Positions 10,979 to 62,594 of a stretch of DNA of 64,000 bases are shown here, piece after piece. Each line of letters begins with the position of its first letter. Position 1 is the stretch's first letter. Below the pieces are notes generated by a model. That model saw only the letters and a list, made by a program, of their open reading frames with translations, ran no database searches and had not been told where the DNA came from. This stretch comes from Dictyostelium discoideum. Lineage: Eukaryota. Location of the stretch: assembly GCA_000004695.1 (NCBI GenBank), contig CM000151.3, positions 4,928,001 through 4,992,000 on the forward strand, given 5' to 3'. The translations under genes were made by a program, and so were the position numbers.

Positions 10979-11014
<36 letters not shown>

Positions 11015-39413: not shown

Positions 39414-39850
39414 AAAAAAAAAAAAAAAAACATATTTGTTTTTTTAAGATTCGATTTAAAAAAAAAAAAAAAAAAACCACAAGAAATAACTTTATGTTTT
39501 AAATTTATTTGTTATTAATGAAAGGGTTTCAGTTTTAAAATTTTTAAGATGTTTGAAGGTGGAAAGCCTTTGAAACACTGCATTAGACTGATCCATTTTT
39601 TTTTTTTTTTGGGATTAGTCTGTTAGATTCTCAAAATCCTTGAGTATGTTTGGAGGCAAATGGCCAAAAAAAAAAAAAATGTAGAAAAAAGTGGAAAAAA
39701 TATATTTTACGAAGTTCGAATTTTTTTTTTTTTTTTTTTTGATATAAATAAACTATTGTAGTATACAATTAGTATGTTATTTTTATTTATTTATTTTAGG
39801 TTTTTTAGTTTTTGTGAATTTAAAATAGTATGTTATTTTAGATTAGGTAA

Positions 39851-42800
39851 TTAATAATTAATTGGTGGTGTAATTGTTGGAATTGGTTCATTTGTGTTTA
39901 TGCTCCATTCTTTTTTAAATTTTTTGATGGTTTCGGACCATTGGGTTTCTTTTTGAGTTTTTGTGAGGTTGTTTTTAATTGAGAATTGGTTAAAGTTTGA
40001 TAACCTTCTTGAATATTCCAATCTTATTAGCTTGTGCCATTTTGATTTTAATATATCATAATCTAGTGTTGTGTTGTTTATTTGGTTGTTCCAATTGTCA
40101 ATTGATTGAGTTATATTGATGTCAAATAATGATTTGCATAACCATATCCATATTTGGTGAATAACTAATGAGATTATGTTCCAATATGCATGTGTTCTGA
40201 CTAGATCAAGATTTGTGTTTATATAATTCCAGTTGAACCTGTATTTTTTATATTGTGCGTTTTCTGCAAAATGAAAATTAATATTGATAGTTGGATCTGG
40301 TTTAAATGCTTTGTTGTTTGTTTGTGGTTTATAAATGAGTGTGTATAATTTTGTTGTTTGGTTTTTTGTTAGTGACCAGTTTTTGTTTCCATTGCAATTT
40401 TTATATATAAAATATTTTAATTTGTCGTGGTTAATGAAGTTGATTGTGTGCTGACAATTGAAAAACAAATGACCATAGGGATCATTATTCATTTCATTGT
40501 TGCAAATGGGGCAAACTTTGTTGTGTAGATGATTAATCGGAAGACATCTAGCATGGAATCTTTGCATTGTATCTCGGCCTTTTGGATCTTTTAATTTTTG
40601 AATTTTGACAAAAAGTTGGTCGTATGTGTATTTCCATAATAGTTGTATTGATTGTTGGTGCGAAGTAAGAAGTAGATCTGAATATTTCTTGCCAATATAG
40701 TCTTTTGATTTGCATTGGTGATTGTTTAGTATTGTCGAGTAGATTTCTTTGAGTGTTGGTGGTAGTGAAATATTATTTGTGTTTAATGTTTGAGAGGGTT
40801 GGTTTTTTGTTAATATTGGTTGTAGGATTTGAACTTTATCTTTTAGATGTCCAATTTGAGTTGCATAGTTTTCCCATTCTTTTTTTATTTTTATAAGGTA
40901 TGGAGAAGAGATTGATTTGTTGATGATTTGATCCATCCAACTTATCATGTATATTGAATTGTTTGCAGATTTATGCATTTGTAAAAATCTGTTGTATATC
41001 CAAATCTTTTGAGCAACTTGTCGTAATTGGATATTCCACATACCCCAACCTCCTTCTTTTAATGGTTTTAATGATCTATCATAACACATCAAAGGTATTT
41101 TTGCACGTGAATGGATGGTTGATGTGTTGTTTTCAATGGAATTGGTATCGAGAGTTGGTGATTCAGAATTTGCGGGAGAATTCATAAACCATGAGATTAA
41201 TTTATTAATTTGAATTTCTTCATCTTTTTTGGTTATTGGAATTCTTTTTGATTGTGGAATGTTGTTTATTATGTGTTTATCAGTGATTTTGTGGGGGTTG
41301 ATTTCTATTATTGCACTTTTGTCAAAATTTAAAGATGATGATGTTGAAGCGCAGAAATTATCGAAATGTTTGATTGATTGTTGTTGTTGTTCGTAGTTGA
41401 TGTTGTATGTTGTAGAGTCGTCTGCAAATTGGGTAAATTTGATTTTAATTTGTGGATTGGGTGAAATTGGTAATCCAATTATTGAATTGTCTGCATTTAT
41501 TGTTCTTGCTAATATTTCAATTACAATTACAAATAAAGTGGCTGAGATTGGGTCACCTTGTTTTACACCTCTTTTAATATCGAATTTTCTGGTCGTTTTA
41601 CCATTAATTGAAATTTTTGCTTGTGAGTCAGATAATAGCTTGTGGATTAAATTTATTAATTTTATTGGTATACCAATATGAATTAATGTTCTTTTAATGC
41701 TATCGTGAGAGATAGAATCAAATGCTTTAAAGAAGTCAAATAGTGTGATGATACCAGGGAGGTTTTTAGATTTGAGGTAATTGATTAATTCATTGATGTT
41801 GATGATGTTGTCTATGATGAATCTGTGGGGTACGAAACCAGTTTGGTTGTTGTTGATGATGAAAGGAAGTATTCTCAGAAGACGTGCATTGATTACTTTT
41901 GAGAGGATCTTGTAATCAGTGTTTAGAAGTGTAATGGGACGACGATTTGATATGAGTAAGGGGTTGCCTTTCTTGTATATTGTGTGTATAAGACCTTCGG
42001 TGAATTCTGTTGTGATGTGGTGAGGATTTTCTAGTATATCGTTGAATAATGTAGTGAGAATTGGTTTAACTTGGTTTAAATGATTAATGTAGAATGCGTT
42101 TGTAACGCCATCTGGACCGGGTGATTTGTTGGGGTTACAGGTTTTAATTGCAGCTTCAACTTCATCTTGTATAAATGGTGAGTCTAAACCATTCCAATAT
42201 TCATTTTTTATGATGGGCCATGTGTTTAGCATGAGCTGGTGAGTAATTGGACAACATATTTGTAAGCTATATAGATTTGTGTAGAATTCAACAAACGCAT
42301 TTTCAATTTGGTCGGGGTCGGATGTAATTATGTTACCATATTGGATTGATTCAATTTTTGCATCTTTTGATCTTTTGTTTAGTATTGCTGATAGATACTT
42401 GCTAGGTATTTCTCCATTTATATGTTTTTTTAATATGTTTGTGTGGTTTTGATGTAATTTGTTTTTGTTACATATAATATTGTATTCAGCGATGCATTGT
42501 TCTTCAAGATGTTTGAATTTTGCTGCTTTTTCTAATAGTATTTGTTTTGCACGTTGAGTTTGTTTGTCTTTGTTATATTGATAGTTTTTTAGAGTTTTAA
42601 TAATTTTTGATTTTACTTTTGACCAGTTTGTAAATTGATTGATTGATGTGTTATTGTGATTAGTTATTAAATGATTGATAATATTGATTGCTTCATGGTC
42701 ATTTGCAGTACCAGGTGATAATATCCATCTTTTCTTATGTTTATTTATTTGAAAAGGTGAAGAAATTGTTGTTGATATTGGATTATGATCTGATAATGAA

Positions 42801-43477
42801 GATGGAATTTGGTGGACTTGTGTATATATATTTTCAGGGTCTATTCTATTGTATTGAGTATATATTCTATCTAATCTGTTGCCATGTGTATGAGTTGGAG
42901 TGTTTTTAAATTCACCTTGATCAATTAGATGGTGTTGGTATGTGTAGGATTGGATAATATCGTCTAATAGTGAATTGTCGTTGTGGATACAGTTGAAATC
43001 TCCTGCGATAATAGATACATGTTGGGATTGGTTTGGTATTGGGTTTGTTGAGTGGTTGTGGAGAAGTGTTTGTAGTGAAGTTGCATATGAATTCTTTTTG
43101 ATGGTATTATTTGATGCTGGTGCGTAAATTCCAAGAATACCAATTGGTAATTGATTTGGAAATATAACGTCTGCTAAAATAGCTCTACCATCAATTGTTG
43201 ATATGTGTTTGAGTTTGAGTGTGTTTGGGTTATGGTTAATGATGATTACACCATTTCCTCGTTTGGTGACAGAGATGATGTGATCGGGAAAATCATGTTT
43301 AAGTTGTAATGGTGATAAATTGAGTTCAGTGAGTATTGAGATTGTTGGACGAGGTGGAAGTTTTGATATAAGTAGTTGTAGTGTGTCAACAGCTTTTTGG
43401 TAGGAATTGTGTTGATTGTTTGGGTTTTCAGTGAATCCTCTACAATTCCATGTTATAAAGTTGATTTTTGAGCTCAT
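39851..43477 (-). CDS. TRE ORF2: apurinic-like endonuclease plus reverse transcriptase, 1208 aa.
   Basis: The N-terminal EN domain (ITWNCRGF..., ...AGDFNCIHND...) and the RT motifs (ITLFDFFKAFDSISHD, FADDSTTY) are present, followed by a C-terminal Cys-rich region. Its ATG overlaps the stop of the preceding ORF as ATGA. Confidence 0.85.
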   Translation of the reverse strand: MSSKINFITWNCRGFTENPNNQHNSYQKAVDTLQLLISKLPPRPTISILTELNLSPLQLKHDFPDHIISVTKRGNGVIIINHNPNTLKLKHISTIDGRAILADVIFPNQLPIGILGIYAPASNNTIKKNSYATSLQTLLHNHSTNPIPNQSQHVSIIAGDFNCIHNDNSLLDDIIQSYTYQHHLIDQGEFKNTPTHTHGNRLDRIYTQYNRIDPENIYTQVHQIPSSLSDHNPISTTISSPFQINKHKKRWILSPGTANDHEAINIINHLITNHNNTSINQFTNWSKVKSKIIKTLKNYQYNKDKQTQRAKQILLEKAAKFKHLEEQCIAEYNIICNKNKLHQNHTNILKKHINGEIPSKYLSAILNKRSKDAKIESIQYGNIITSDPDQIENAFVEFYTNLYSLQICCPITHQLMLNTWPIIKNEYWNGLDSPFIQDEVEAAIKTCNPNKSPGPDGVTNAFYINHLNQVKPILTTLFNDILENPHHITTEFTEGLIHTIYKKGNPLLISNRRPITLLNTDYKILSKVINARLLRILPFIINNNQTGFVPHRFIIDNIININELINYLKSKNLPGIITLFDFFKAFDSISHDSIKRTLIHIGIPIKLINLIHKLLSDSQAKISINGKTTRKFDIKRGVKQGDPISATLFVIVIEILARTINADNSIIGLPISPNPQIKIKFTQFADDSTTYNINYEQQQQSIKHFDNFCASTSSSLNFDKSAIIEINPHKITDKHIINNIPQSKRIPITKKDEEIQINKLISWFMNSPANSESPTLDTNSIENNTSTIHSRAKIPLMCYDRSLKPLKEGGWGMWNIQLRQVAQKIWIYNRFLQMHKSANNSIYMISWMDQIINKSISSPYLIKIKKEWENYATQIGHLKDKVQILQPILTKNQPSQTLNTNNISLPPTLKEIYSTILNNHQCKSKDYIGKKYSDLLLTSHQQSIQLLWKYTYDQLFVKIQKLKDPKGRDTMQRFHARCLPINHLHNKVCPICNNEMNNDPYGHLFFNCQHTINFINHDKLKYFIYKNCNGNKNWSLTKNQTTKLYTLIYKPQTNNKAFKPDPTININFHFAENAQYKKYRFNWNYINTNLDLVRTHAYWNIISLVIHQIWIWLCKSLFDINITQSIDNWNNQINNTTLDYDILKSKWHKLIRLEYSRRLSNFNQFSIKNNLTKTQKETQWSETIKKFKKEWSINTNEPIPTITPPINY

Positions 43478-44013
43478 ACCTTACTAGGTTTGGCAGCACC
43501 AGTATTGACTGGTTGTGTAGTCAGGGCATTGCTGCTTCTTCTTGTATTTATTGGATTTGGAGTTGGTGCACTTGGTTTGTTTGGTTGAGATTGTAGAGGT
43601 TTTTGTGGTACAATTGTTGGATCGGTTGGATTGCTCATTGATAATGAGTTTTTCCCGTTATTATTATTTGAAGAATCACTTTTGTGTGAAATTTCATTAT
43701 TGTTTTGGGATTGATTGTTAATATCAAGTGATTCATTTAGTATAGCTTTTGAACCACTATTTTGAAGTGAGTTTTTATTGCGATTGGAATTTGCAATTTC
43801 GTTGATTGGTGGGGTGTTAATGTTGTTTTTTGGTGGTTGATTGTTTTTGTTCATGTTTGGGTTTGTGATGGCATTTTTTATAGTTGTTGCCATATCTGCA
43901 TTTTTTGCATGTTGAATTTTGTGTTTAGTGACACTACGTGTTGCAGCTTTGATATATCTTGTGATACCAGATGGTTGTTCGATCTTTTGATCAACAATGT
44001 TGTGTGTGATCAA
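43474..44013 (-). CDS. TRE middle ORF, 179 aa. A basic, Asn/Pro-rich protein.
   Basis: It overlaps the ORF1 end by 23 nt and the ORF2 start by 4 nt. The same arrangement is conserved in the fragment copies at 54054..54374 and 54366..54698. Confidence 0.6.
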   Translation of the reverse strand: MITHNIVDQKIEQPSGITRYIKAATRSVTKHKIQHAKNADMATTIKNAITNPNMNKNNQPPKNNINTPPINEIANSNRNKNSLQNSGSKAILNESLDINNQSQNNNEISHKSDSSNNNNGKNSLSMSNPTDPTIVPQKPLQSQPNKPSAPTPNPINTRRSSNALTTQPVNTGAAKPSKV

Positions 44014-44680
44014 TTAGATGATATGTTATAATGTAGCTTTTAAACGCAACAGCATATGAGTATGTGACAGTAAATGATTCAATTGATGTACAACTGGTGA
44101 ATTTAGTGAGGTTGTTTGTAATTGCATCGTTTGCATGTTTGGGTGAGTACGTTTTAATGAATGTTTTAATGATTGCATAATCATTTGATGATATATCGAA
44201 TCTATAGTTGAGTTTGTCGATATTTAGTGCAAGTTGGTTTTGAAGGTTGATTATTGAAGTTAATTTATCAACGTTGCAATTTACGAAGGCAGTTGCACCA
44301 ATTATTTTGAATGCTGATGGCGACAGTATATCTTCGAAGAGTTTGTGAATGTTTTTGTGAATTTGTTGAATTCTTGTGTCATCTTTTGAGGTTAATTCTT
44401 CACGGATGTGTGGTTGATTAAAGTAACACTTAATGTTGATGGTGTTATTGTTTTTTTCTAAGAAAGAGAGTGGTCTTGTGATTGATGGAGGTGCAATGAT
44501 ATCTAATTGATTATCAAGTCCTTTGTTTAGTGAGAGTTGGTTTGTTGGGGTTTGTTTTTTAGGTGTGTCGATTTTTACACTTTTGTTTTTTGTTGTTGAG
44601 GTTGTGGAGGTATTATTTGTATTTGTTGTGTTGTTATCTGTATGATTTAACTGTAATTCAGTTGAGTGATCATCAGCCAT
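43991..44680 (-). CDS. TRE ORF1, 229 aa.
   Basis: The start MADDHSTELQLNH... is repeated, near-identical, at 53780..54076 (plus strand) and in the inverted copy. Confidence 0.7.
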   Translation of the reverse strand: MADDHSTELQLNHTDNNTTNTNNTSTTSTTKNKSVKIDTPKKQTPTNQLSLNKGLDNQLDIIAPPSITRPLSFLEKNNNTINIKCYFNQPHIREELTSKDDTRIQQIHKNIHKLFEDILSPSAFKIIGATAFVNCNVDKLTSIINLQNQLALNIDKLNYRFDISSNDYAIIKTFIKTYSPKHANDAITNNLTKFTSCTSIESFTVTYSYAVAFKSYIITYHLIDHTQHC

Positions 44681-44877
44681 TGTTGAAAAGTATATAGGAC
44701 GATAGCCCTTGCTTTAATGAGCAAAAATAGGGTAAAATTAAGAGGAATGAATGTGGCGGTGAAGATATAACAGTGATTTATTTATTATATGTATAAATTC
44801 TCGTTTATTTCTTTGTTTTTTCGGTTTTTTGTTTTTTCAATCGAAGTTCGAATTTAGTGAAATTTCTAAAAAAGAAA

Positions 44878-44950: not shown

Positions 44951-44956
44951 ATGTTG

Positions 44957-45348: not shown

Positions 45349-45437
<89 letters not shown>

Positions 45438-48400
45438 TTATTATGAAAACCGTATTTTTTTCGGGTAATGGAAAGGGTTAATCATTCTTTAATTTCAACC
45501 ACTAACTCTTATTAATTCATGGCGAGGAAATATCGAAAGCTGATATTATTAGAAAACTAAGAAACAATGCATTGGAATATGCCGCAACATTGGATACAGA
45601 CTTAACAGCAATGGAGATAATTGAAGATCTTAAAGATGCTTTTGATATTGGTGATAGTGATGATTTATCAGATTTAACAAAGTTAGGAGAATATAAATAC
45701 AATACATTAGATATATTAATTGGTAAATTTCTTTCAAAATGTTCAGCAGTTGATATTTCAGAAAAGTTTAAAATACAATTGTTTTATTCAGCTGTTGGTA
45801 TTGAATTGGGTATTGAAATTACAAAATGTGCACCAAAATCATTAAAAAGAGCAATAGACATTGCAAAGTCTTGTGAAGATGGTTCAATTCGTATGAGAGG
45901 TAGATCAATGTATACTGGTCAATTGGTTGCAAAAACATTACAAGAATTTGGAACTCAAAAGTATCTTGGTTCTGGATCTGGTTATACAACATCACCACAG
46001 TACGTTACATCTCAAACTGAACAATCTACTGAAACTGAAGTATTAGCAACTCCAATTTATAAAAATCAAACATATTCACCACCACCATCACCTTATAAAG
46101 CACCACAAAATCAAGTAAATTCAATCACAAAATTTTGTAAATATTGCAAAAAGAAAGGTCATGTAATTCAAGAGTGTTGGTCTAAAGATAAAAAGAATAA
46201 TTATAATGAGAATAAACAATCATATAATAATCATAGCACTAATGCAATTACAATGGTTAATGATAAAACGATTAATTCTATTGGAACTGATAGTATGAAT
46301 GCAGCATTATTAATAAATGATAAGAATGTTAGAGGTTTAGTTGATACTGGTTCTTCTCTTACCATCATTTGGGAAAGTATTGCTAAAAAATTAAATTTAA
46401 AAGTTGAAGGTAAATCATTTTCAGTTAATTCAGCATCAAATAATGAAATTAAGATAGTTGGTAGTTGTGATACCATAATTAAATTAGGTAAAGCATCCGC
46501 AAAAGTTAATGTTAATATTGTTAAAGATAATGATACTTCAATCGATTGCATTTTTGGTGTAGATACACTTATTGGATTGAAATTAATAATTGATTGCAAG
46601 GAAATGATCATTAAGAATCTTGAATTTAATGTTGGTACAAGATTAATCACCAGAGAAACCAAACCAATTGTTTGCAAAATTGATCTAAATATATTAGAAA
46701 AAGTATCAAAACCAATGGCTGAGTTATTAATCAAAAATGAAGAGATTTTTGAAACCAAATTGTCAAAACCAGGATCATTAATAGATGTTGAACATTCAAT
46801 TAAATTAACTGATGAAAATGTTTCTGTTTATACTCCACCATACAAAACTAGTCCAGCTGATAAAGAATTCATTGAAGAATACATTAAAGATGCATTAGAT
46901 AAAGGTATAATCGAGAAATCAGATTCATCACAATACGGTTCTCCAATAGTCTTATCCAGAAAGAATGATAAAATTAGATTTTGTGTTAATTATAAAAAAC
47001 TAAATGACCTCACAATTAAAGATAGATATCCACTTCCATTAATTTCTGATTGTTGGTATTATCTCAAAGATGCAAAAGTTTTCTCAAAAATTGATCTTAC
47101 TTCTGGTTATTATCAAATCAAAATGAAAGAAGAGGACAAGGATAAAACAACCTTTGTCTCTCATATGGGTCAATTTAGATATGTTGTAATGCCATTTGGA
47201 TTATGTAATGCACCAGCAACTTTTCAAAGATACATGAATGAATTATTAAAGGATGAATTAAGAAAAAGTAATATTGGGTTTATTGACGATTGTATAATTT
47301 ATAGCAAGAATAATGAATATCATATTGAACATGTCAAACTATTATTCGAAAAATTCAAAGAAAAAGGTGCAAAGTTACAAATAACTAAATGTGAGTTTGA
47401 AAAAGAAGAGATCAAGTTTTTGGGATATATCGTTTCAAAGAATGGTATTACTTATGATAGTTCAAAGTTTAATGAATTATTAAAAACACCACCTCCATCA
47501 AATCAAAAAGAATTAATGAAATTACTCGGTACTGTCAATTACTTTAGAACATTCATTAAAAATTTCACTCATTTAACTTCATCATTTTATCCACTATTAA
47601 AGAAGGGTGTTAATTTCAAATGGACTGATGAATTGGAAAATGATCGTGTAAAATTATTTACTACATTAGCACAAACTAATCTTTTAAGTTTTCCACAAGA
47701 TACAGATGATAATGTTATTGAAACTGATGCTTCAATTATTGGTATTGGTGGTGTAATGATTCAAAATGGTAAACCAGTTTCTTATTATTCAAGAACATTA
47801 AACAACGCTGAAAAGAATTATTCTGTTACTGAAAGAGAATGTTTGGCAATCATTGAATCAATTAAATATTTTAAATCCTATATCAATGGTAGAAAAGTAA
47901 AAATCATCACTGATCATCAACCTTTGAAATATCTCTTAACTGGTAAATTTACTGATCGTATTACAAGATGGACTGTATTACTTCAAGAGTATAATTACGA
48001 AATTATATATAGACCTGGTAAAGAAAACTTTTTAGCTGATGCATTATCAAGATGTCCAGATAGAGATCAACAGCCAATTGATTGTGATATTCCAGAAAAG
48101 ATATTTACAATTACTCACTATCCAGTAGCTTCACCATCAACTACAATTTTACCAAGAGTCTTACCATCAAGATCAAATCAAACATCTAATGTTTCACCAG
48201 CTACAACAATTCAACCACCAAATTCATCAAGTTCAAATCAATCATCAAATATCCCACCAACAACAAACCAATCATCAAATATTACAAATCAACCAATAAA
48301 TACTTCATCAATGAATTTAAATCAATCATTATCAAATCAAGCAACAACCGCTAGATTATTGAATAGTGTACCTATCTCAATCAACAATGATAATATTAAT

Positions 48401-50003
48401 ACAACAACTCCACAATTTACACAAGAGTCAATAAGAAAAGAGTTGGAAAAAGAAAATTATTATAGAGCAATGTATAAATATCTTGAAGAAACAAGACTTC
48501 CAGACAATGCACAAGCAGCAAGAAGAATTTTGTTCGAGTCTGAATTTTATTCAATGATTAATGGATTTCTTTGTCACGGTTTAAAACATACTTTATCAAG
48601 TAAGAAATCTCATTTTAAACATCTTCAAATTGTAGTTCCAAAAACTATGACTAAATGGATAATGGAAATATTTCATGATTCGCCACTTACTGGAGGACAT
48701 TTTGGATTATTAAAAACTGTCGCAAAAATCAAAGAAAGATTCTATTGGATTGGTATGATTAAGGATATAAAAGAATTTATCGATAAATGTACAACTTGTT
48801 TACAAATTAAAAGAAAGTATGGTCCAAAAGAAGGTTTACTCATTCCAATTGAGATTGAACCTGAACCATTTAATACAATTGGTATTGATTTTATTGGTCC
48901 AATTACAAAAGATAATGCTCAAGTTTATTTGTTGGTTGTTATGGATTATTTTACTAAATGGCCAGAAGTTTTCTTTACCCTTGATATGGAAGGGGAGACT
49001 GTAGCTCAATTATTGTTGTATGAAATCTATACTAGATATGGGGTTCCAAAGAAGTTGGTTTCTGATCGTGGTAAGAATTTTTTAAGTAATGTAGTCTCTG
49101 GTGTTAATAAATTATTCGGTGTTCACAAATTAACAACTACTGCTTATCACCCACAATGTGATGGTCAAACTGAAAATTTCAATAATACATTAATTAAGAT
49201 GCTCAAAGCTTTTATTGGTAATGAATTGTATGGCAATTGGGGTGAATTATTAAGATGTGTTTTATACTCATACAGAATTACACCACATGTTTCAACTGGT
49301 TTTTCACCCTTTTTCTTACTTTTTAATCGTCAACCAACTTTACCATTAGATACAACTTTAAATGTAAATTTTTATTCAAATTCACTAAGATTAGATTTCG
49401 CTGATAATTATGCACAATCCGTAAATAATAATCTTAAACGTGCCTTTTGGTTTACAAAGAATAATCTCGATAAAGCTCAAGAATTACAAAAAACAAATTA
49501 TGATAAAGGTCGTCGTCCAACAAATATTCAAACAGGTGATTTTGTTTATTTACATACACCATATTCACAAACTTCTATTGGTCCAAAGAAATTCTATAAA
49601 CCTTGGAGAGGTCCTTTTAAAGTTCAAGAAAAAGTTAGCGATGTTACATTCAAATTAGATATGGGTAATCTTAGAGATCATAAAGTAGTCAATATTGAAA
49701 GATTGAAAAAAATTTTCAACTAAAAGGGGGGGATATGTAATAAAGTTACTCTATAAAATTAATAGATATTAAATATGCATATTACATTACTAATTATAGT
49801 TGACACACATTTAAATAATATAATAATAATAATAATAATAATACTGTCAACTCATTATGAATAATATAAATACTAAAGAATAATTTTATAAACAATATTG
49901 AATATTATAAATATAAATTAATATTAAATAAAGATAACAAAGTATTATTCAATTATATAATTATTAATTATATATATTTATAAAGCTAACAAGCTTTATT
50001 ACA
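44957..50003 (+). mobile_element. Full-length Ty3/gypsy-type LTR retrotransposon (DGLT-A-like) inserted 6 bp upstream of the tRNA-Met gene. The two 268-bp LTRs are identical (44957..45224 and 49736..50003) and start TGTAATAAAG and end CTTTATTACA. A polypurine tract AAAAGGGGGGGG lies at 49723-49734.
   Basis: Direct comparison of the two LTR copies shows they are identical in my reading. The internal region is a single 1383-aa gag-pro-pol ORF. The putative primer-binding site TTGGCGACATCG lies directly 3' of the 5' LTR. Confidence 0.85.
45572..49723 (+). CDS. Gag-Pol polyprotein of the LTR element. It contains a CCHC zinc knuckle, an aspartic protease (LVDTGSS), a reverse transcriptase (YVVMPFGLCNAPATFQRYMN, FIDDCIIYS), RNase H and an integrase (HHCC...DxxE).
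   Basis: Canonical motifs are read directly from the ORF. The ORF is uninterrupted. Confidence 0.85.
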   Translation: MEYAATLDTDLTAMEIIEDLKDAFDIGDSDDLSDLTKLGEYKYNTLDILIGKFLSKCSAVDISEKFKIQLFYSAVGIELGIEITKCAPKSLKRAIDIAKSCEDGSIRMRGRSMYTGQLVAKTLQEFGTQKYLGSGSGYTTSPQYVTSQTEQSTETEVLATPIYKNQTYSPPPSPYKAPQNQVNSITKFCKYCKKKGHVIQECWSKDKKNNYNENKQSYNNHSTNAITMVNDKTINSIGTDSMNAALLINDKNVRGLVDTGSSLTIIWESIAKKLNLKVEGKSFSVNSASNNEIKIVGSCDTIIKLGKASAKVNVNIVKDNDTSIDCIFGVDTLIGLKLIIDCKEMIIKNLEFNVGTRLITRETKPIVCKIDLNILEKVSKPMAELLIKNEEIFETKLSKPGSLIDVEHSIKLTDENVSVYTPPYKTSPADKEFIEEYIKDALDKGIIEKSDSSQYGSPIVLSRKNDKIRFCVNYKKLNDLTIKDRYPLPLISDCWYYLKDAKVFSKIDLTSGYYQIKMKEEDKDKTTFVSHMGQFRYVVMPFGLCNAPATFQRYMNELLKDELRKSNIGFIDDCIIYSKNNEYHIEHVKLLFEKFKEKGAKLQITKCEFEKEEIKFLGYIVSKNGITYDSSKFNELLKTPPPSNQKELMKLLGTVNYFRTFIKNFTHLTSSFYPLLKKGVNFKWTDELENDRVKLFTTLAQTNLLSFPQDTDDNVIETDASIIGIGGVMIQNGKPVSYYSRTLNNAEKNYSVTERECLAIIESIKYFKSYINGRKVKIITDHQPLKYLLTGKFTDRITRWTVLLQEYNYEIIYRPGKENFLADALSRCPDRDQQPIDCDIPEKIFTITHYPVASPSTTILPRVLPSRSNQTSNVSPATTIQPPNSSSSNQSSNIPPTTNQSSNITNQPINTSSMNLNQSLSNQATTARLLNSVPISINNDNINTTTPQFTQESIRKELEKENYYRAMYKYLEETRLPDNAQAARRILFESEFYSMINGFLCHGLKHTLSSKKSHFKHLQIVVPKTMTKWIMEIFHDSPLTGGHFGLLKTVAKIKERFYWIGMIKDIKEFIDKCTTCLQIKRKYGPKEGLLIPIEIEPEPFNTIGIDFIGPITKDNAQVYLLVVMDYFTKWPEVFFTLDMEGETVAQLLLYEIYTRYGVPKKLVSDRGKNFLSNVVSGVNKLFGVHKLTTTAYHPQCDGQTENFNNTLIKMLKAFIGNELYGNWGELLRCVLYSYRITPHVSTGFSPFFLLFNRQPTLPLDTTLNVNFYSNSLRLDFADNYAQSVNNNLKRAFWFTKNNLDKAQELQKTNYDKGRRPTNIQTGDFVYLHTPYSQTSIGPKKFYKPWRGPFKVQEKVSDVTFKLDMGNLRDHKVVNIERLKKIFN

Positions 50004-50457
50004 TTTTGAAATATTTTTGAAATATTTTTGCACCATTACGTTTTATTTCCATTCCAAAAAAAAAAAACGTTTTATTTTTCATTGGGAAGAAACTAATAAT
50101 TGTGTTATCCAATTCAAAAAAGTATTTTTCATTTAAATTATTTTTTTTATATAATTCTACAGTATTTCATGAATGTTCATTTTTATTCTTTATTATTTTT
50201 TTTTTTTTAATTTTTAATTTTTTTTTTTTTTTTTTTTGAAAATTAAAATCAAAACCAAGATATTTTTTTTTTTTTCTTCCCTTATTTTTTTTTTTTTATT
50301 TTTATAACTATTCTTTAATAGAATTCTTTTTTTAAAAAAAAAGAACACCATGGAAGCTTTTTTGTTTTTTTTTTAAAAATGGATATAAATTATTATTTTT
50401 TTTTTTTAAAAAAATAAAACAAGATAATATCCAAAAATAAATAAAACAGAAAAAAAA

Positions 50458-50973
50458 ATGCCTCCAAAGATTAAAATAATTACAGGTCCAATCGGTTCTG
50501 GAAAAACAACAATTTTAAATAGAATCAAAGAGTCATATGAAAGAAAAGAAATCTTTATTGGTCAAAAGGTTGGATTTTTTGGTGAACCTACTGATTCCAC
50601 TGTAGCTAATGCTCTCCTAAAGGATATGTACTCAAAGTTTCCATTTGCTAATGATCAGTTTGAAACTTTACAAAAATACCTAATGGCTGTGGAAGCTAAT
50701 GATTTATGTAATGCTTTGTCATCGTCAGAGTATGATATTGTTTACTTTGATACATCGGTTTTGTATGGAGTTGTATTTTTACAAACTGCTAATGATTTGA
50801 AAATCATAAACAATCAAACCTATTCAAATTGTCTAACGTTTTACTATCAAATGATTTCAAATATTAATTTCGAAAATGCTGAAGTAACCAATTTAAAAGT
50901 CATACCACACATAGGTGTATGGAGCAAATTAACCAAAGAGGTAGAGCCTTTGAAGTCGGTAGTTTATCTATAG
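50458..50973 (+). CDS. Deoxynucleoside-kinase-like P-loop NTPase, 171 aa. It appears truncated. The downstream frame-shifted remnants (to ~51250) suggest a pseudogene or a mis-joined gene.
   Basis: The P-loop GPIGSGKTT is present. There are dNK-like motifs FFGEPTDS (EPV-like) and FDTSVLYGVVF (ERS/DRY-like). The ORF stops before the expected arginine-rich lid. Coding-like text continues in another frame (DYVSKLTDKIRSHCVSQVYQDLKNQ). Confidence 0.4.
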   Translation: MPPKIKIITGPIGSGKTTILNRIKESYERKEIFIGQKVGFFGEPTDSTVANALLKDMYSKFPFANDQFETLQKYLMAVEANDLCNALSSSEYDIVYFDTSVLYGVVFLQTANDLKIINNQTYSNCLTFYYQMISNINFENAEVTNLKVIPHIGVWSKLTKEVEPLKSVVYL

Positions 50974-52170: not shown

Positions 52171-52345
52171 GACCTAATGATCATGAGACCCTACGCTCTA
52201 CCAATTGTGCCAACCCGACATGTTGATATTTTTTGACAAAAAATGCTCAATCTGGTGTTATCCAATTCAAAAAAAAAAAGTTTCTTAATGATTTACCTTA
52301 GGATTATGAGACCTGCACTATACCAACTTAACCAAACTGATATGT
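52171..52345 (-). pseudogene. Two degenerate fragments of the 5' half of tRNA-Met (about 52171..52222 and 52294..52345). Each is followed by the tRNA's native upstream flank ATGTTGATATTTTT.
   Basis: gaccttaggattatgagacctacgctctaccaactgagccaacctgacatgttgatattttttg at 44907-44956 matches gacctaatgatcatgagaccctacgctctaccaattgtgccaacccgacatgttgatattttttgac, and also ttaccttaggattatgagacctgcactataccaacttaaccaaactgatatgttgatattttt. Confidence 0.6.
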
Positions 52346-53254
52346 TGATATTTTTCCTTAGAAAAATGACTAACCAGATATTTTTTAATGTTGAAAAACT
52401 CAACCATCTGGAATTCAAAAAAAATTATAACCTTTACATCAACACCCCAAAAATTGAGGCTAATTCAATACCAACTACATAAGGTTAAGTTTAAAACAAA
52501 ATAATAAAAATTAATAATAATAATATTAACAATAATAATAAGAAATAAAAAAAATTTATTAAAAAACAATATCAAAACTCTGAGGCTTTGGGTTATATTA
52601 TGGAATTTCTTTTGGCAAAAAGAAAAAAAAAAAAAAAAATAAAATTCTAAGAAAAACTTACATAATTTAGAATAAGTAATTAAGAGATAATAGATAACAC
52701 TATATGTATGTTTTAGTGTAAAATTTCTTTTATAACCTTTAATTAAAATTTTTATTTTTCTCACCATTTTTCGTTTTTTCAAAAAAACTTAAAATGCATA
52801 ATTTGGATAGTCTTTATTTGAAAGTAAAAAACCAGGAATGATAAGAAAAATAAAAATTTAAAATAAAGATTATAAAAAATAATTAACACACCAAAACATA
52901 CCATATGTTATTTATTATCTCTTAATTATTTACTTAATCTAATAGATATTCTAACAAAACATTTAAAAATAATTAGTTATGAAATACAAATATATGAATT
53001 AAATATATGTTTAGAAATAAAACAAATAATTAAAACAAATAAAAGATTTATTATTGTTATGGAAATTGTAAAATAAAAACTGATGTTAGTCTCATTACAA
53101 TTATGGGCGATGGTTTTTGCTAATAAAATTTAATAAGGCTTTAAAACTTTTTTTTTTTTTTTACATCTCTTTAAAAATTCCAATTTTCTTGCAACTTTCT
53201 TCCAAATTTTAAGAAAGGTGATCATTTCCAGTATTTAAAATAAATTTCCATCAA

Positions 53255-53328
53255 GCCTTAGTAGCTCAGTTGGTACGAGCGTGAGACTGAAGATCTTAAG
53301 GTCGCTGGTTCGATCCCGGCCTGAGGCA
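53255..53328 (+). tRNA. tRNA-Phe (anticodon GAA), 74 nt.
   Basis: GCCTTAGTAGCTCAGTTGGTACGAGCGTGAGACTGAAGATCTTAAGGTCGCTGGTTCGATCCCGGCCTGAGGCA. The anticodon loop is CUGAAGA. It is highly similar to canonical eukaryotic tRNA-Phe. Confidence 0.85.
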
Positions 53329-53334
53329 AATATT

Positions 53335-54370
53335 TTTTGATGGTTTTCCAATGGCTGATGATCACTCCGCCGAAAAGACACAGTCTGATCACAGGTAAAA
53401 AAAAAAAAAAAAAAAGTTAAATCATACAGATAACAACACAACCAATACAAATAATACCTCCACAACCTCAACAACAAAAAACGAAAGTGCAAAAATCGAC
53501 ACACCTAAAAAACAAACCCTAACAAACCAACTCTCACTAAACAAAGGACTTGATAATCAATTAGATATCATTGCACCTCCATCAATCACAAGACCACTCT
53601 CCTTCTTAGAAAAAAACAATAACACCATCAACATTAAGTGTTACTTTAATCAACCACACATCCATGAAGAATTAACCTCTAAAGATGACACAAGAATCCA
53701 ACAAATTCACAAAAATATTCACAAACTCTTCGAAGATATACTGTCGCCATCAGCATTTAAAATAATTGGTGCAACAGCCTTGGTAAATTGCAACGTTGAT
53801 AAATTAACTTCAATAATCAACCTTCAAAACCAACTTGCACTAAATATAGACAAACTCAACTATAGATTCGATATATCATCAAATGATTATGCAACCATTA
53901 AAACATTCATTAAAACGTACTCACCCAAACATGCAAACGATGCAATTATAAACAACCTCACTAAATTCACCAGTTGTACATCAATTGAATCATTTACTGT
54001 CACATACTCATATGCTGTTGCGTTTAAAAGCTACATTATAACATATCATCTAATTGATCACACACAACATTGTTGATCAAAAGATCGAACAACCATCTGG
54101 TATCACAAGATATATCAAAGCTGCAACACGTAGTGTCACTAAACACAAAATTCAACATGCAAAAAATGCAGATATGGCAACAACTATAAAAAATGCTCTC
54201 ACAAACCCAAATATTAACAAAAACTATCAACCACCAAAAAACAACATTAACACCCCACCAATCAACGAAATTGCAAATTCCAATCGCAATAATAACCCAC
54301 TTCAAAATAGTGGTTCAAAAGCTACACTAAATGAATCACTTAATAATAACGGGAAAAACTCATTATCAAT
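53335..54370 (+). mobile_element. 5'-truncated or rearranged TRE fragment (degenerate ORF1 start, ORF1 and the beginning of the middle ORF). It begins ~22 bp downstream of tRNA-Phe, in the same orientation as the tRNA.
   Basis: ORF 53780..54076 is the ORF1 C-terminus and 54054..54374 is the middle-ORF N-terminus; both are near-identical to 43474..44680. The ORF1 N-terminus is disrupted by an A17 insertion at ~53400. Confidence 0.7.
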
Positions 54371-55500
54371 GTGAGATTTCATTATTGTTTTGGGATTGAT
54401 TGTTATTATTAAGTGATTCATTTAGTGTAGCTTTTGAACAACTATTTGGAAGTGGGTTATTATTGTGATTGGAATTTGCAATTTCGTTGATTGGTGGGGT
54501 GTTAATGTTGTTTTTTGGTGGTTGGTTGTTTTTGTTAATATTTGGGTTTGTGAGAGCATTTTTTATAGTTGTTGCCATATCTGCATTTTTTGCACGTTGA
54601 GTTTTGTGTTTAGTGACACTACGTGTTGCAGCTTTGATATATCTTGTGATACCAGATGGTTGTTCGATCTTTTGATCAACAATGTTGTGTGTGATCAATT
54701 AGATGATATGTTATAATGTAGCTTTTAAACGCAACAGCATATGAGTATGTGACAGTAAATGATTCAATTGATGTACAGCTGGTGAATTTGGTGAGGTTGT
54801 TTGTAATTGCATCGTTTGCATGTTTGGGTGAGTACGTTTGAATGAATGTTTTAATGATTGCATAATCATTTGATGATATTTCGAATCTATAGTTGAGTTT
54901 GTCGATATTTAGTGCAAGTTGGTTTTGAAGGTTGATTATTGAAGTTAATTTATCAACATTGCAGTTTACGAAGGCAGTTGCACCAATTATTTTAAATGCT
55001 GATGGCGACAGTGTATCTTCGAAGAGTTTGTGAATGTTTTTGTGAATTTGTTGAATTCTTGTGTCATCTTTAGAGGTTAATTCTTCACGGATGTGTGGTT
55101 GATTAAAGTAACACTTAATGTTGATGGTGTTATTGTTTTTTTCTAAGAAGGAGAGTGGTCTTGTGATTGATGGAGGTGCAATGATATCTAATTAATTATC
55201 AAGTCCTTTGTTTAGTGAGAATTGGTTTGTTGGGGTTTGTTTTTTAGGTGTGTCGATTTTTGCACTTTTGTTTTTTGTTGTTGAGGTTGTGGAGGTATTA
55301 TTTGTATTGGTTGTGTCGTTATCTGTATGATTTAATTGTAATTCAGTTGAGTGATCATCAGCCATTGTTGAAAGGTATATAGGACGATAGCCCTTGCTTT
55401 ACTGAGCAAAAATAGGGCAAAATTAAGATGAATGAATGTGGTGGTAAAGATATAACAGTGATTTATTTATTATATGTATAAATTCTTGTTTATTTCTTTG
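54371..55500 (-). mobile_element. Inverted TRE 5' fragment (5' UTR, ORF1 and middle-ORF N-terminus) joined head-to-tail-inverted to the preceding fragment. Together they form a ~2.1 kb palindrome-like structure with its junction at ~54370.
   Basis: ORF 54366..54698 on the minus strand is equivalent to 54054..54374 on the plus strand. The 5' UTR at 55361-55500 matches 44700-44830. Confidence 0.7.
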
Positions 55501-55789
55501 TTTCGTTTTTTTTCATACTTTGATAATTTTTATAATTTTGATAATTTTGATATTTTTGATATTTTTGATATTTTTGATAGTTTGTTAAATCCAATGAGGA
55601 ATATAAAGTCAAAAATTAATTATAAAAAAAAAAAAAAACTGGTTTAGAAAATTCACATACATTTTAACAAAGAATAGTATATTGATTAATCCATCAAAGA
55701 TTTAGACAAATAGTGTACACTTTGTTAAATTGGAAAAAATTGTATTGTTAAAAACCAAAAAAGTTGGTTTTTTTTATTTATTTATTTAT

Positions 55790-59279
<3,490 letters not shown>

Positions 59280-61080: not shown

Positions 61081-61790
61081 TCTTTTAAAAATTATTTGTT
61101 GTGTTTTGAAGAAGGAAAAAAAAAAAAAATAAAAAAATAAAAAAAAAAAAGTAAAAAACAAAAAAAAAAGCGAAAAAATGAAAAATAAAAAAATTAAATT
61201 TAGAAATAAAATTATTAATTATTATTATTATTATTATTTTATTTTAACCTTAAATAATTAAATAAATAATAATAATTAATATAAAACAATTATACAAAGT
61301 TTTAATTTATTATTTTTATTTTAATTTTTAATATAAAGTCAATTATTAATATTTTTTTTATTTTGTATGATTAATTTTTTTTTTGTTTTTTTTTTTTTTA
61401 TATTGATCCATTAAAGGAAATAAACAGTAATAAATAGATTTTTTTATGGATTTTAATTTAAAAAGTTAAGTTTTTTTTTTTTTTTCTTTTTTTTTTTTTT
61501 TTAAGGAACCAATATTGTTTCAGTTTAGGTTGTCTAAATAGAATATTTGGTTAGTTAAAAGAAGATAAAATTACTACTATTTTGGGAATTATTTAAATAA
61601 ATTGGTGGAAAGAGACTAGGTTTGGGATCACTGATTTCGGAATGCAATAAACTTTGCATGTTAAGTTTCTTAAATTAATAATTTGAGGAAAAAATTTGGA
61701 TCTTTGAAGTGATGATCGATTATTAAATTTGGTTACATTTGAAGTAACAAAGCGTCGAACTTGTGATCTATAAATTACGTGAGAAAATTA

Positions 61791-61863
61791 CGCCCAAAGG
61801 GGGGCTCGAACCCCCGACCACAAGGTTAAAAGCCTTGCGCTCTACCGACTGAGCTATCTGGGC
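61791..61863 (-). tRNA. tRNA-Lys (anticodon UUU), 73 nt.
   Basis: The reverse complement GCCCAGATAGCTCAGTCGGTAGAGCGCAAGGCTTTTAACCTTGTGGTCGGGGGTTCGAGCCCCCCTTTGGGCG. The anticodon loop is CUUUUAA. T-arm GGGGG TTCGAGC CCCCC. Confidence 0.8.
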
Positions 61864-62594
61864 AATATTGTTAAATTTTTTGGAAAATTTTCAAATTTTA
61901 TACTGAATTTTTTTACAACGGATCCTCTTCCATAAAAACAAAAACAAAAAATATAAATTCAAACGTAATGGTTCATTCGCCATGGGTCATACAAAAAAAA
62001 AAATAAATAAAAAATTGAATTAAAACAAACTTTGTTCTTTTTTTATAAAACTACTTAAAAACATCTAAAAAGGTGGTTATAAAAAAAAAAAAAAACCAAG
62101 AAAAGCACACATTTAAACGAAATTTTAGTTTTTTATGGCATTTTTAAAAATGTAAAATTTTTTTTTAAAAATCAAAAAAAAAAAAAAAAAGATTGAATAA
62201 GCATAAAAAAAAAAAAGATTAAATAGGCCTTCAATTTTTTAACCCATTCACAGAATCCTCGAGAAAAAATATCTTTTACCATTGCAATTTCCAAAACGAA
62301 AGAGGAGCATTCCAACTGACAGTAAAAAAAATAAATAAAAAAATAAATATTTGGAAGGAAAAAATCAATTTGCCGAGCAATGAGTGTTTTAATTCACCAA
62401 AAAAATAATTTATTACAAATAAACAATAGATTATTCATACTATTTTCTGAGCGAAATAGATATTTCCAAGCCTATTGATAATGTCGTAAATTTATTTCTT
62501 TTTTTTTTTTCAAAAGTTTATAACCATTTTTTTTTTTTTTTTTTTTTTTTGTTAATAAGTTTTAGGTTCTATTACACTAAAAAAACAATATATA

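What the first reader, a model, noticed from the sequence alone, without database searches (positions are those of the whole stretch)
53255..55500. Palindromic pair of 5'-truncated TRE fragments downstream of tRNA-Phe
A TRE 5' portion starts 22 bp after tRNA-Phe, in the same orientation as the tRNA. It runs to ~54370 and is there fused to an inverted copy of the same TRE region (54371-55500). The result is a ~1 kb-arm inverted repeat with a sharp junction. Near the junction the plus copy lacks ~60 nt that are present in the inverted copy. This looks like a hairpin-mediated rearrangement or an aberrant retrotransposition event (twin priming or template switching). It could be a fragile site.
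Basis: seen in the sequence. Interest (0 to 1): 0.6.

Follow-up and report, generated by a model that had tools for sequence, protein, structure and literature searches.

The report
Tail-to-tail TRE3 retrotransposon fragment palindrome
Just downstream of a Dictyostelium discoideum tRNA-Phe gene, two dead 5' pieces of the TRE3 retrotransposon are joined tail to tail into a real, stably inherited 0.93-kb-arm inverted repeat; it is an ordinary transposon scar whose one possibly useful property is that a transcript across it would fold into long double-stranded RNA.

Summary
The arms are 53417-54350 and 54402-55335 (934 nt, 97% complementary). A 51-nt centre separates them, and the junction is sharp at 54370/54371 with a 2-nt TG overlap. 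The plus arm lacks exactly 60 nt. The window is Dictyostelium discoideum, and the repeat is the first ~1.2 kb of a TRE3 non-LTR retrotransposon; a full-length copy lies at 39721-44841. A second, independent D. discoideum assembly (GCA_054883475.1) matches 53101-55800 at 2700/2700 nt, so this is not a mis-assembly. The title is wrong in one respect: both arms are 3'-truncated 5' portions, and only the plus arm is also 5'-truncated. Twin priming does not fit, because the 5' ends face outward and there is no 3' end or poly(A). The arms differ from each other (2.9%) as much as from unlinked copies (2.65-3.4%). The inverted arm keeps an authentic 5' terminus but has no tRNA or B box beside it. The most likely origin (about 0.4) is two convergent TRE3 copies that lost their centre in a pairing-guided, microhomology-joined deletion. 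Fold-back copying and RT-mediated break repair remain open. A read-through transcript would form about 920 bp of dsRNA, which makes the locus an untested candidate source of TRE3-A siRNAs. Interest is modest.

The parts
53255..53328 (+). tRNA-Phe (anticodon GAA), the Pol III gene that attracted the TRE3 insertion
   Evidence: ARAGORN. Rfam tRNA, 62.5 bits. Internal B box GGTTCGATCCC at 53307-53317.
53329..53350 (+). 22-nt spacer between the tRNA and the plus arm. It contains the T6 run (53334-53338) and a TTTTGATGG unit like the right-flank repeat.
   Evidence: Sequence. Compare with the (TTTTGATAN)n array at 55519-55580.
53351..54371 (+). Plus arm: TRE3 element positions ~162 (ORF1 ATG) to 1206, in the canonical orientation for tRNA-Phe. 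It lacks the 5' UTR, ORF2 and poly(A).
   Evidence: blastn to the full-length copy: 53415-54350 = element 190-1125 at 97.3%, and 54341-54371 = element 1176-1206 at 100%. Alignment.
53368..53415 (+). 48-nt foreign segment (29-mer CGCCGAAAAGACACAGTCTGATCACAGGT plus A19) that replaces 12 nt of ORF1. Origin unexplained.
   Evidence: Alignment. No other copy in the window or L003. No Rfam hit. No exact match in genome contigs.
54342..54350 (+). Scar of the 60-nt in-frame deletion (element 1126-1185) in the plus arm. One copy of the 9-nt direct repeat AATAATAAC remains.
   Evidence: Alignment of plus arm, inverted arm, reference copy and L003 copy. blastn coordinates.
54351..54401 (.). 51-nt non-palindromic centre: 21 nt found only in the plus arm (element 1186-1206) and 30 nt found only in the inverted arm (element 1155-1126).
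54370..54371 (.). Junction of the two arms. The dinucleotide TG is shared by both (2-nt microhomology).
   Evidence: The blastn end points overlap: plus arm ends at 54371, inverted arm starts at 54370. Sequence.
54370..55513 (-). Inverted arm: TRE3 positions ~10 to 1157 on the minus strand, with complete 5' UTR and ORF1 ATG at 55365. It has a private stop codon in ORF1 and lacks ORF2 and poly(A).
   Evidence: blastn 54370-55512 = element 1157-12 at 96.2%. Its 5' end GAAAAAAAACGAAAC matches the TSD-bounded 5' end of the L003 copy.
55366..55513 (-). Complete TRE3 5' UTR of the inverted arm. This is the only TRE3 5' UTR left in the structure (whether TRE3 5' UTRs carry a promoter was not checked), and it points into the palindrome.
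   Evidence: Alignment with two full-length copies. Promoter activity is inferred, not tested.
53417..54350 (+). Left arm of the inverted repeat as scored without gaps. It pairs with 54402-55335.
   Evidence: the repeat finder I1: 934 nt, 97% complementary. 28 substitutions spread evenly; longest identical tract 177 nt.
54402..55335 (-). Right arm of the inverted repeat. It pairs with 53417-54350.
55514..55580 (+). Right flank: CATAC, then a (TTTTGATAN)n tandem array. There is no tRNA and no B box up to the stop codon of the Nek-type kinase gene at 55790.
   Evidence: Sequence. Rfam at E<=10 finds only tRNA-Phe in 53100-55900. No B-box match with <=3 mismatches in 55480-55800.
39721..44841 (-). 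Full-length TRE3 used as the yardstick: 5121 nt, A20 tail, target-site duplication TTCGAACTTCG. ORF1 44680-43474 is split by a 2-nt frameshift; ORF2 is 43477-39851. Its duplicated target site starts 25 nt downstream of tRNA-Met(-), and the element body starts at nt 36.
   Evidence: The ORF2 gene model in the other assembly carries Exo_endo_phos + RVT_1.

Best explanation
WHAT IT IS (confidence about 0.9). This is a genuine chromosomal structure in Dictyostelium discoideum. Two non-functional 5' fragments of the tRNA-gene-targeted non-LTR retrotransposon TRE3 are joined tail to tail 22 bp downstream of tRNA-Phe. The plus arm is the expected TRE3 insertion for this tRNA: downstream, same orientation, 5'-truncated. 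The inverted arm is a second TRE3 sequence with an authentic full-length 5' terminus, in the anti-canonical orientation. Neither arm has ORF2 or a poly(A) tail, so the structure cannot transpose.

HOW IT AROSE (inferred, about 0.4). Two independently reverse-transcribed TRE3 copies once lay convergently in the T-rich array behind tRNA-Phe. Together they formed a long quasi-palindrome. Pairing of the arms, as a hairpin or cruciform during replication, brought equivalent element positions together. One deletion then removed both 3' parts. Its end points were almost symmetrical (element positions 1206 and 1157) and were joined through a 2-nt TG microhomology. A later 60-nt slippage deletion between AATAATAAC repeats further eroded the symmetry at the centre.

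WHAT IT DOES NOW (inferred). Probably nothing for the tRNA. However, any transcript that starts in the intact 5' UTR of the inverted arm and reads through would fold into about 920 bp of dsRNA, which is a possible Dicer substrate.
For: Real structure: a second D. discoideum assembly (GCA_054883475.1) is identical at 2700/2700 nt over 53101-55800. It differs from the window at 109 alignment columns elsewhere in the 21.2 kb, in homopolymers, the DGLT-A-like element and the reference TRE3. It therefore was not copied from the same sequence.

TRE3 identity: the arms are 96-97% identical to the first 1.2 kb of a 5121-nt element that has a poly(A) tail, an 11-nt TSD and an APE-RT ORF2. [quoted passage not shown]

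Independent origin of the arms: pairwise differences are plus/inverted 2.87%, against 2.65-3.43% for all other pairs among four copies. Private changes number 9, 13, 10 and 13. Informative sites split 4 / 3 / 1. The two 5' ends differ: one is truncated at ~162 with a scar, the other is complete and ends like the TSD-bounded L003 copy.

Pairing-guided deletion: the break points are about 50 nt apart out of 5121, roughly a 2% chance for independent break points, with 2-nt microhomology. The second small deletion sits beside the centre.

Contiguous target: the TTTTGATGG unit on the left matches the (TTTTGATAN)n array on the right.

Off-target or odd TRE3 insertions do occur: the L003 copy has a TSD and no tRNA within 8 kb.

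dsRNA potential: MFE is -1594 kcal/mol with 916 centre-spanning pairs, against -433 +/- 7 for shuffles.
Against: The model needs one TRE3 insertion in the orientation opposite to the rule reported for TRE3. No tRNA or B box explains that arm. No intermediate allele with two full-length convergent copies has been seen. With only four copies to compare, arms that were copied from each other at the time of insertion would look the same as independent copies. The arms do share 4 substitutions and, if the other assembly is right about the reference copy, a 2-nt frameshift. No transcript or small-RNA data were examined.
Confidence: 0.4

Rival explanations
1. Fold-back (snap-back) copying of a single TRE3. 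A sense-strand 3' end at element position 1206 folded back about 50 nt, paired through TG and copied its own strand, or a co-linear retrotransposition intermediate, back to the element's 5' end. This made the inverted arm from the plus arm. The plus arm later lost its 5' UTR and acquired the 48-nt scar and the 60-nt deletion.
For: A short loop and 2-nt microhomology are the classical fold-back signature. The polarity also fits: the plus arm extends 49 nt beyond the start of the inverted arm, not the reverse. The flanks look contiguous. The arms share 4 substitutions and possibly a 2-nt frameshift. The plus arm clearly suffered later rearrangements.
Against: The arms are as diverged as unlinked copies. 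The inverted arm contains about 150 nt of 5' UTR that is absent from its supposed template. A DNA-level fold-back should have copied on into the flank and tRNA-Phe, yet it stops within about 1 nt of the canonical element terminus. A cDNA-level snap-back has no obvious way to integrate without a 3' end or poly(A).
Confidence: 0.25
2. Reverse-transcriptase-mediated repair of a break in a resident TRE3. The canonical TRE3(+) copy was nicked or broken at about position 1206. Its 3' OH then primed on a TRE3 RNA from another copy, possibly held nearby as an R-loop, at position 1157 through 2 nt of pairing. RT ran to the RNA's 5' end. The cDNA was joined to the downstream flank, and the rest of the resident copy was deleted. 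This resembles endonuclease-independent LINE-1 insertion.
For: This model explains several features: the authentic full-length 5' terminus, the absence of a 3' end, poly(A) or TSD, the absence of a tRNA or B box for the inverted arm, and the independent sequence of the arms. Endonuclease-independent L1 insertions are typically 3'-truncated, lack poly(A) and are accompanied by target deletions (my own knowledge, Morrish et al. 2002).
Against: Priming only about 50 nt from the equivalent position would be a roughly 2% coincidence unless the RNA was tethered at the homologous site. That tethering is pure speculation. No such event is documented for TRE elements in the papers read.
Confidence: 0.2
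3. Twin priming during one TRE3 retrotransposition event.
For: It would involve inverted segments of a non-LTR element joined at a sharp junction with microhomology.
Against: Twin priming leaves the 3' end with poly(A) in sense orientation and an inverted upstream segment whose 5' end faces inward. The two segments come from adjacent parts of the RNA and are bounded by a TSD. Here the 5' ends face outward, both arms cover the same ~1 kb, and there is no 3' end, poly(A) or definable TSD.
Confidence: 0.02
4. Assembly or cloning artefact: a chimeric palindromic clone or read.
For: Repeats and palindromes are classical sources of mis-assembly, and the reference genome of this species is an old Sanger assembly (own knowledge).
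Against: A second assembly reproduces the structure at 2700/2700 nt and differs from the window elsewhere. The arms differ at 28 substitutions plus indels, whereas a strand-switch chimera would give identical arms.
Confidence: 0.03

Closest known systems
TRE3 (tRNA gene-targeted retroelement, 3' type; probably TRE3-A) of Dictyostelium discoideum
   Same: The arms are 96-97% identical to the 5' 1.2 kb of a complete 5.1-kb APE-RT element in the same window. The plus arm lies downstream of a tRNA gene in the tRNA's orientation, as described for TRE3 (PMC5911963, PMC5006619).
   Different: Both arms lack ORF2, the 3' UTR and poly(A). The plus arm starts 22 bp from the tRNA, against the published 40-150 bp. 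The second arm is inverted and has no tRNA of its own. The subfamily (A to D) could not be checked because no reference sequences were available.
LINE-1 5' inversions by twin priming (own knowledge: Ostertag & Kazazian 2001)
   Same: Inverted pieces of one non-LTR retrotransposon joined at a microhomology.
   Different: The geometry is opposite. Twin priming gives 5' ends inward, keeps the 3' end and poly(A), produces a TSD, and uses non-overlapping segments. None of these holds here.
[quoted passage not shown] 2007, PMC2175303; reviewed in PMC5633606)
   Same: A retrotransposon-derived inverted repeat in the same organism that could give a long hairpin transcript and has been proposed as a siRNA source.
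   Different: Skipper is an LTR element, with a stem of ~320 bp and a loop of ~900 nt, and cloned small RNAs map to it. Here the stem is ~930 bp and the loop 51 nt, the element is non-LTR, and no small-RNA mapping has been done.
Central deletion ('revision') of long palindromes, and fold-back inversions at breaks (own knowledge: mouse transgene palindromes, yeast inverted Alu repeats, Tetrahymena/Dictyostelium rDNA palindromes)
   Same: An asymmetric short centre, a microhomology junction, and a further small deletion next to the centre. Divergent arms and a spacer are associated with stability.
   Different: The process was not observed here; only the end product is seen. The deletion would have to be large, about 4 kb from each arm.
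Endonuclease-independent LINE-1 insertions at DNA breaks (own knowledge: Morrish et al. 2002)
   Same: A 3'-truncated insertion without poly(A) or TSD, with a complete 5' end and loss of target DNA.
   Different: Not known for TRE elements. It does not by itself explain why priming was only about 50 nt from the equivalent position.

Membership tests
TRE3 non-LTR retrotransposon | Sequence homology to an element with ORF1, APE-RT ORF2, poly(A) tail and target-site duplication | tested here: met
   The arms are 97.3% and 96.2% identical to positions 190-1125 and 12-1157 of the 5121-nt copy at 39721-44841. That copy has an A20 tail, the TSD TTCGAACTTCG and an ORF2 with Exo_endo_phos + RVT_1.
TRE3 non-LTR retrotransposon | Located 40-150 bp downstream of a tRNA gene, in the tRNA's transcriptional orientation (PMC5911963) | tested here: inconclusive
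   Plus arm: the orientation is met, but the distance is 22 bp, shorter than published. The reference copy's target site starts only 25 bp from tRNA-Met, so the range is looser in practice. Inverted arm: the orientation is not met, and no tRNA or B box lies beside its 5' end.
TRE3 non-LTR retrotransposon | Subfamily assignment (TRE3-A, B, C or D) | not testable with these tools
   No reference sequences are held. Glockner et al. 2001 is not in the library, and the supplement of PMC5006619 has no TRE3 sequences. The ATGA overlap between ORF1 and ORF2 is compatible with the -1 frame relation reported for TRE3-A.
Twin-priming inversion | Sense 3' segment ending in poly(A), plus an inverted upstream segment with its 5' end facing inward, the whole flanked by a TSD | tested here: not met
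   No 3' end or poly(A) is present. The 5' ends face outward, and both arms cover the same element positions.
Fold-back (snap-back) inverted duplication | Short single-copy loop and microhomology at the turn | tested here: met
   The break points are 49-51 nt apart (1206 vs 1157) with a TG overlap.
Fold-back (snap-back) inverted duplication | One arm is a copy of the other: sister sequences, with no sequence in the copy that is absent from the template | tested here: inconclusive
   The arms are not closer to each other than to unlinked copies (2.87% vs 2.65-3.43%; informative sites 4/3/1). The inverted arm has ~150 nt of 5' UTR that the plus arm lacks. Only four copies were available, and later deletion in the plus arm cannot be excluded.
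Hairpin-RNA / endo-siRNA locus | Capacity of a single transcript to form long dsRNA | tested here: met
   A 2172-nt transcript of either strand gives MFE -1594 or -1628 kcal/mol with 916 or 921 centre-spanning pairs. Shuffles give -433 +/- 7.
Hairpin-RNA / endo-siRNA locus | A transcript spanning both arms, and 21-nt RNAs carrying arm-specific variants | not testable with these tools
   No expression or small-RNA data are available here. The literature shows only that TRE3-A 21-nt RNAs exist and rise in drnB- cells, with unknown source (PMC6161686).

The most novel reading that the evidence does not exclude
The locus is a natural single-promoter hairpin-RNA gene. Transcription from the intact 5' UTR of the inverted arm would read through the 51-nt centre into the antisense of the plus arm. 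The resulting ~920-bp dsRNA would be diced into the 21-nt TRE3-A small RNAs whose origin is unexplained (PMC6161686). A retrotransposon scar at a tRNA gene would then serve as the RNAi trigger that restrains the TRE3 family, and its long-term retention would be explained by that function.
Probability: 0.15. Interest if true: 0.6.

Novelty: new member of a known kind. Interest (0 to 1): 0.3.

Why it matters
This is mainly a clean, well-resolved example of how tRNA-targeted retrotransposons leave rearranged scars. It shows that a ~0.9-kb-arm near-palindrome with a 51-nt spacer can be carried without any change in two D. discoideum assemblies. That argues against treating every such structure as an assembly error or a fragile site. 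It also corrects the tempting 'twin priming' label. The one wider point is testable with existing data. TRE3-A small RNAs have been reported with no known source, and this locus has the anatomy of an RNAi hairpin construct: one 5' UTR, a ~920-bp stem and a short loop. The 28 arm-specific substitutions and the unique junction allow reads to be assigned to it unambiguously.

Tried and rejected
(1) Orthologous locus in other strains or species. Two homologous-protein searches with the neighbouring Nek-type kinase (full ORF; kinase domain only) returned no D. discoideum protein.

(2) Encoding-contig look-ups that failed. The contiguous window ORFs 50458-50973, 55790-58924, 54366-54698 and 54054-54374 were not on record. 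P0003 was not on record.

(3) Exact-match scans that found nothing: the junction 32-mer and a conserved ORF1 34-mer in metagenome contigs, and the foreign 29-mer in bacterial/archaeal genomes.

(4) A lost tRNA or B box to the right of the inverted arm. Rfam at E<=10 and a B-box scan with <=3 mismatches found none.

(5) Subfamily assignment. Glockner et al. 2001 is not held, and the PMC5006619 supplement has no TRE3 sequences.

(6) Confirming the origin of GCA_054883475.1. No supplement text or assembly-method keywords were found, so the link to PMC12745789 is inferred only.

(7) Recent arm-to-arm gene conversion is rejected. The differences are evenly spread, and the longest identical tract is 177 nt.

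(8) A recurrent breakpoint hotspot was suggested because gene models P0004 and P0005 end near the same codon. It is rejected: in L003 this is a point mutation to TAA inside a continuous element.
Full report
ORGANISM AND ELEMENT. The window is very AT-rich, with GC between 0.14 and 0.33. The ORF1-like protein of the repeat matches only Dictyostelium discoideum proteins, with DDB_G... and ACTFIT_... tags. Three tRNA genes are present: tRNA-Met(-) at 44877-44951, tRNA-Phe(+) at 53255-53328 and tRNA-Lys(-) at 61790-61864.

A blastn of 53201-55700 against the window found a third copy of the repeated sequence beside tRNA-Met. That copy is a complete non-LTR retrotransposon on the minus strand, 44841 to 39721 (5121 nt):
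- It ends in A20 and is bounded by the target-site duplication TTCGAACTTCG.
- It encodes ORF1 (44680-43474, split by a 2-nt frameshift) and a 1208-aa ORF2 (43477-39851).
- The ORF2 gene model in another assembly carries Exo_endo_phos and RVT_1.
- It lies downstream of tRNA-Met in the tRNA's orientation, which is the published behaviour of TRE3 elements (PMC5911963; PMC5006619).

I use this copy as the coordinate system, with position 1 = 44841. The subfamily is probably TRE3-A, the abundant one, but this could not be verified.

CHECK OF THE OBSERVATION. The repeat finder reports arms 53417-54350 and 54402-55335: 934 nt, 97% complementary, 51 nt apart. The next-best inverted repeat in 52500-56500 has 107-nt arms at 77%.

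The plus arm:
- It starts with the ORF1 ATG at 53351, 22 nt after tRNA-Phe, and runs to 54371 (element positions 162-1206).
- It lacks the ~160-nt 5' UTR.
- At 53368-53415, 48 foreign nucleotides (a GC-rich 29-mer plus A19) replace 12 nt of ORF1.
- It lacks exactly 60 nt (positions 1126-1185) between two copies of AATAATAAC.

The inverted arm:
- It runs from 54370 (position 1157) to about 55513.
- It ends in GAAAAAAAACGAAAC, the same terminus as a TSD-bounded full-length copy from another locus (L003).
- It therefore has a complete 5' end.

The two arms overlap by the dinucleotide TG at 54370-54371. The title is not. Both arms are 5' portions, that is 3'-truncated, and neither has ORF2 or poly(A).

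IS IT AN ASSEMBLY ARTEFACT? Two of the ORF1-like database proteins (P0001, P0002) turned out to be gene models laid over the two arms in a different D. discoideum assembly, GCA_054883475.1. There they are adjacent and convergent. The 21.5-kb locus fetched from that assembly (L001) aligns to window 42801-64000 at 99.49%. All 109 differing columns lie in homopolymer runs, in the DGLT-A-like LTR element and in the reference TRE3 copy. Across 53101-55800 the two assemblies are identical at 2700 of 2700 positions.

The assemblies are therefore independent reads of the same or a very closely related strain, and both contain the palindrome with every detail. The second assembly is probably the de novo Nanopore + Illumina AX2-214 assembly of PMC12745789: its N50 of 5.3 Mb matches a 5,288,541-bp contig of this accession. 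I could not confirm that link. In addition, the arms differ at 28 substitutions plus indels, whereas a strand-switch chimera would produce identical arms. Mis-assembly is very unlikely.

ANATOMY THAT CONSTRAINS THE MECHANISM.
- E1, arm divergence. Among four copies (reference, plus arm, inverted arm, L003 copy) every pair differs by 2.65-3.43%. The two arms differ by 2.87%. Private changes number 10, 9, 13 and 13. Informative sites split 4 (arms together) / 3 / 1. Using the other assembly's version of the reference copy adds one shared 2-nt indel to the arms. The arms are thus no closer to each other than unlinked copies, although four copies give little power.
- E2, the 5' ends. They differ: one is truncated and scarred, the other is complete.
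- E3, missing 3' parts. Both arms lack everything 3' of about position 1200.
- E4, break points. Positions 1206 and 1157 are 49 nt apart in a 5121-nt element. That is roughly a 2% chance for independent break points. They share 2 nt of microhomology.
- E5, the flanks. The right flank is a (TTTTGATAN)n array, and the 22 nt left of the plus arm contain TTTTGATGG, so the flanks look like one interrupted T-rich stretch behind the tRNA. To the right there is no tRNA at Rfam E<=10 and no B-box-like motif with <=3 mismatches, up to the stop codon of a Nek-type kinase gene at 55790.
- E6, spread of differences. They are evenly distributed, with a longest identical tract of 177 nt, so there has been no recent arm-to-arm conversion.

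MECHANISM. Twin priming is excluded by geometry. In twin priming both cDNAs are anchored to the flanks by their 3'-most element positions. This gives 5' ends that face inward, a retained 3' end with poly(A), and non-overlapping segments (own knowledge). Here the 5' ends face outward, and the same 1 kb is present twice without any 3' end.

Three models remain.

(A) Two independent TRE3 copies, convergent, behind tRNA-Phe.
- They would form a long quasi-palindrome that lost its centre in one deletion.
- The end points would be juxtaposed by arm pairing, which explains E4.
- A 60-nt slippage deletion at the new centre would follow.
- This accounts naturally for E1, E2, E3, E4 and E6.
- It requires one insertion in the anti-canonical orientation.
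- The L003 copy shows that TRE3 can insert, with a TSD, far from any tRNA: it sits inside a polyketide-synthase gene with no tRNA within 8 kb.

(B) Fold-back copying of a single copy.
- It explains E4, the polarity of the loop and E5.
- It requires the event to be as old as the insertion itself (E1).
- It requires later loss of the plus arm's 5' UTR (E2).
- It requires copying to have stopped exactly at the element's terminus.

(C) A break in the resident copy, extended by reverse transcription of a TRE3 RNA to its 5' end, as in endonuclease-independent L1 insertion.
- It explains E1, E2, E3 and E5.
- It makes E4 a coincidence unless the RNA was tethered at the homologous site.

I rank A about 0.4, B about 0.25 and C about 0.2. 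All steps of origin are inferred; only the end product is seen.

CONSEQUENCES. The structure cannot transpose. ORF1 is broken in both arms: both carry the frameshift, and the inverted arm also has a stop codon. The gene models on the arms in the other assembly use introns to skip these defects, so they are annotation artefacts.

The inverted arm retains the only complete TRE3 5' UTR, and it points into the palindrome. A 2172-nt read-through transcript of either strand folds with 916-921 centre-spanning base pairs and an MFE of -1594 to -1628 kcal/mol. Shuffled sequence gives -433 +/- 7.

In D. discoideum a partial Skipper fragment able to form a ~320-bp hairpin was proposed as the source of Skipper small RNAs (PMC2175303; PMC5633606). 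Small 21-nt RNAs from TRE3-A exist and accumulate in drnB- cells 'for unknown reasons' (PMC6161686). That this locus feeds the RNAi pathway is a hypothesis only; promoter activity, read-through and small RNAs were not examined. There is no evidence for fragility: the two assemblies agree at every base.

VERDICT. It is partly wrong: twin priming does not fit, the '5'-truncated' label is incorrect, and fragility is unsupported. This is a new example of a known kind of thing, a rearranged retrotransposon remnant forming an inverted repeat. It has modest interest apart from the testable hairpin-RNA idea.

Noticed in passing
window 44965-50006: An LTR retrotransposon with 274-nt LTRs (44965-45238 and 49736-50006) and one uninterrupted 1383-aa gag-pol ORF (45572-49723; protease, RT, RNase H and integrase domains on the other assembly's gene model). 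It starts 13 bp upstream of tRNA-Met(-), the position typical of DGLT-A. A review states that all D. discoideum DGLT-A copies are incomplete, yet this one looks nearly intact. The two assemblies disagree strongly at 45255-46856.
   Followed up: partly
window 43998-44002 (reference TRE3 copy, ORF1): The full-length TRE3 in the window has a 2-nt (CA) deletion that splits ORF1. The other assembly has the extra CA at this copy, giving a continuous ORF1. Both palindrome arms carry the deleted form in both assemblies. This is either an error in one assembly or a microsatellite polymorphism.
   Followed up: partly
window 52171-52220 (minus strand) and ~52290-52340: A 49-nt stretch matches the 5' two-thirds of the window's tRNA-Met(CAT) at 84%, including the anticodon loop, but lacks the T arm. 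A diverged second unit lies ~120 nt further on. These look like truncated tRNA pseudogenes about 1 kb upstream of tRNA-Phe. ARAGORN does not call them, and Rfam finds nothing at E<=1.
   Followed up: partly
window 52673-52779 / 52826-52932: An AT-rich inverted repeat with 107-nt arms (77% complementary, 46-nt spacer) lies ~320 bp upstream of tRNA-Phe. Its nature is unknown.
   Followed up: no
window 53368-53415: A GC-rich 29-mer followed by A19 replaces 12 nt of TRE3 ORF1 in the plus arm. It looks like the 3' end and poly(A) of another RNA captured by a template jump, or like repair filler. No source was found.
   Followed up: partly
L003 7854-14245 (GCA_054883475.1, CM142511.1:4598011-4614970): A TRE3 copy with a complete 5' end, a poly(A) tail and the target-site duplication TCATCATTTC is inserted at the start of a polyketide-synthase-like gene (ketoacyl-synt domains). 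No tRNA gene lies within 8 kb. This is an off-target insertion by an element described as strictly tRNA-associated. It also carries two internal insertions (9997-11128 and 12557-12749).
   Followed up: partly
window 52794-54330 and 54366-55365 (gene models P0001 and P0002 of the other assembly): The other assembly annotates the two dead TRE3 arms as 'hypothetical proteins' of 283 and 284 aa. The models invent introns that skip the stop codons and the frameshift. One even takes its first exon from 52795, upstream of tRNA-Phe, so its intron spans the tRNA gene.
   Followed up: yes
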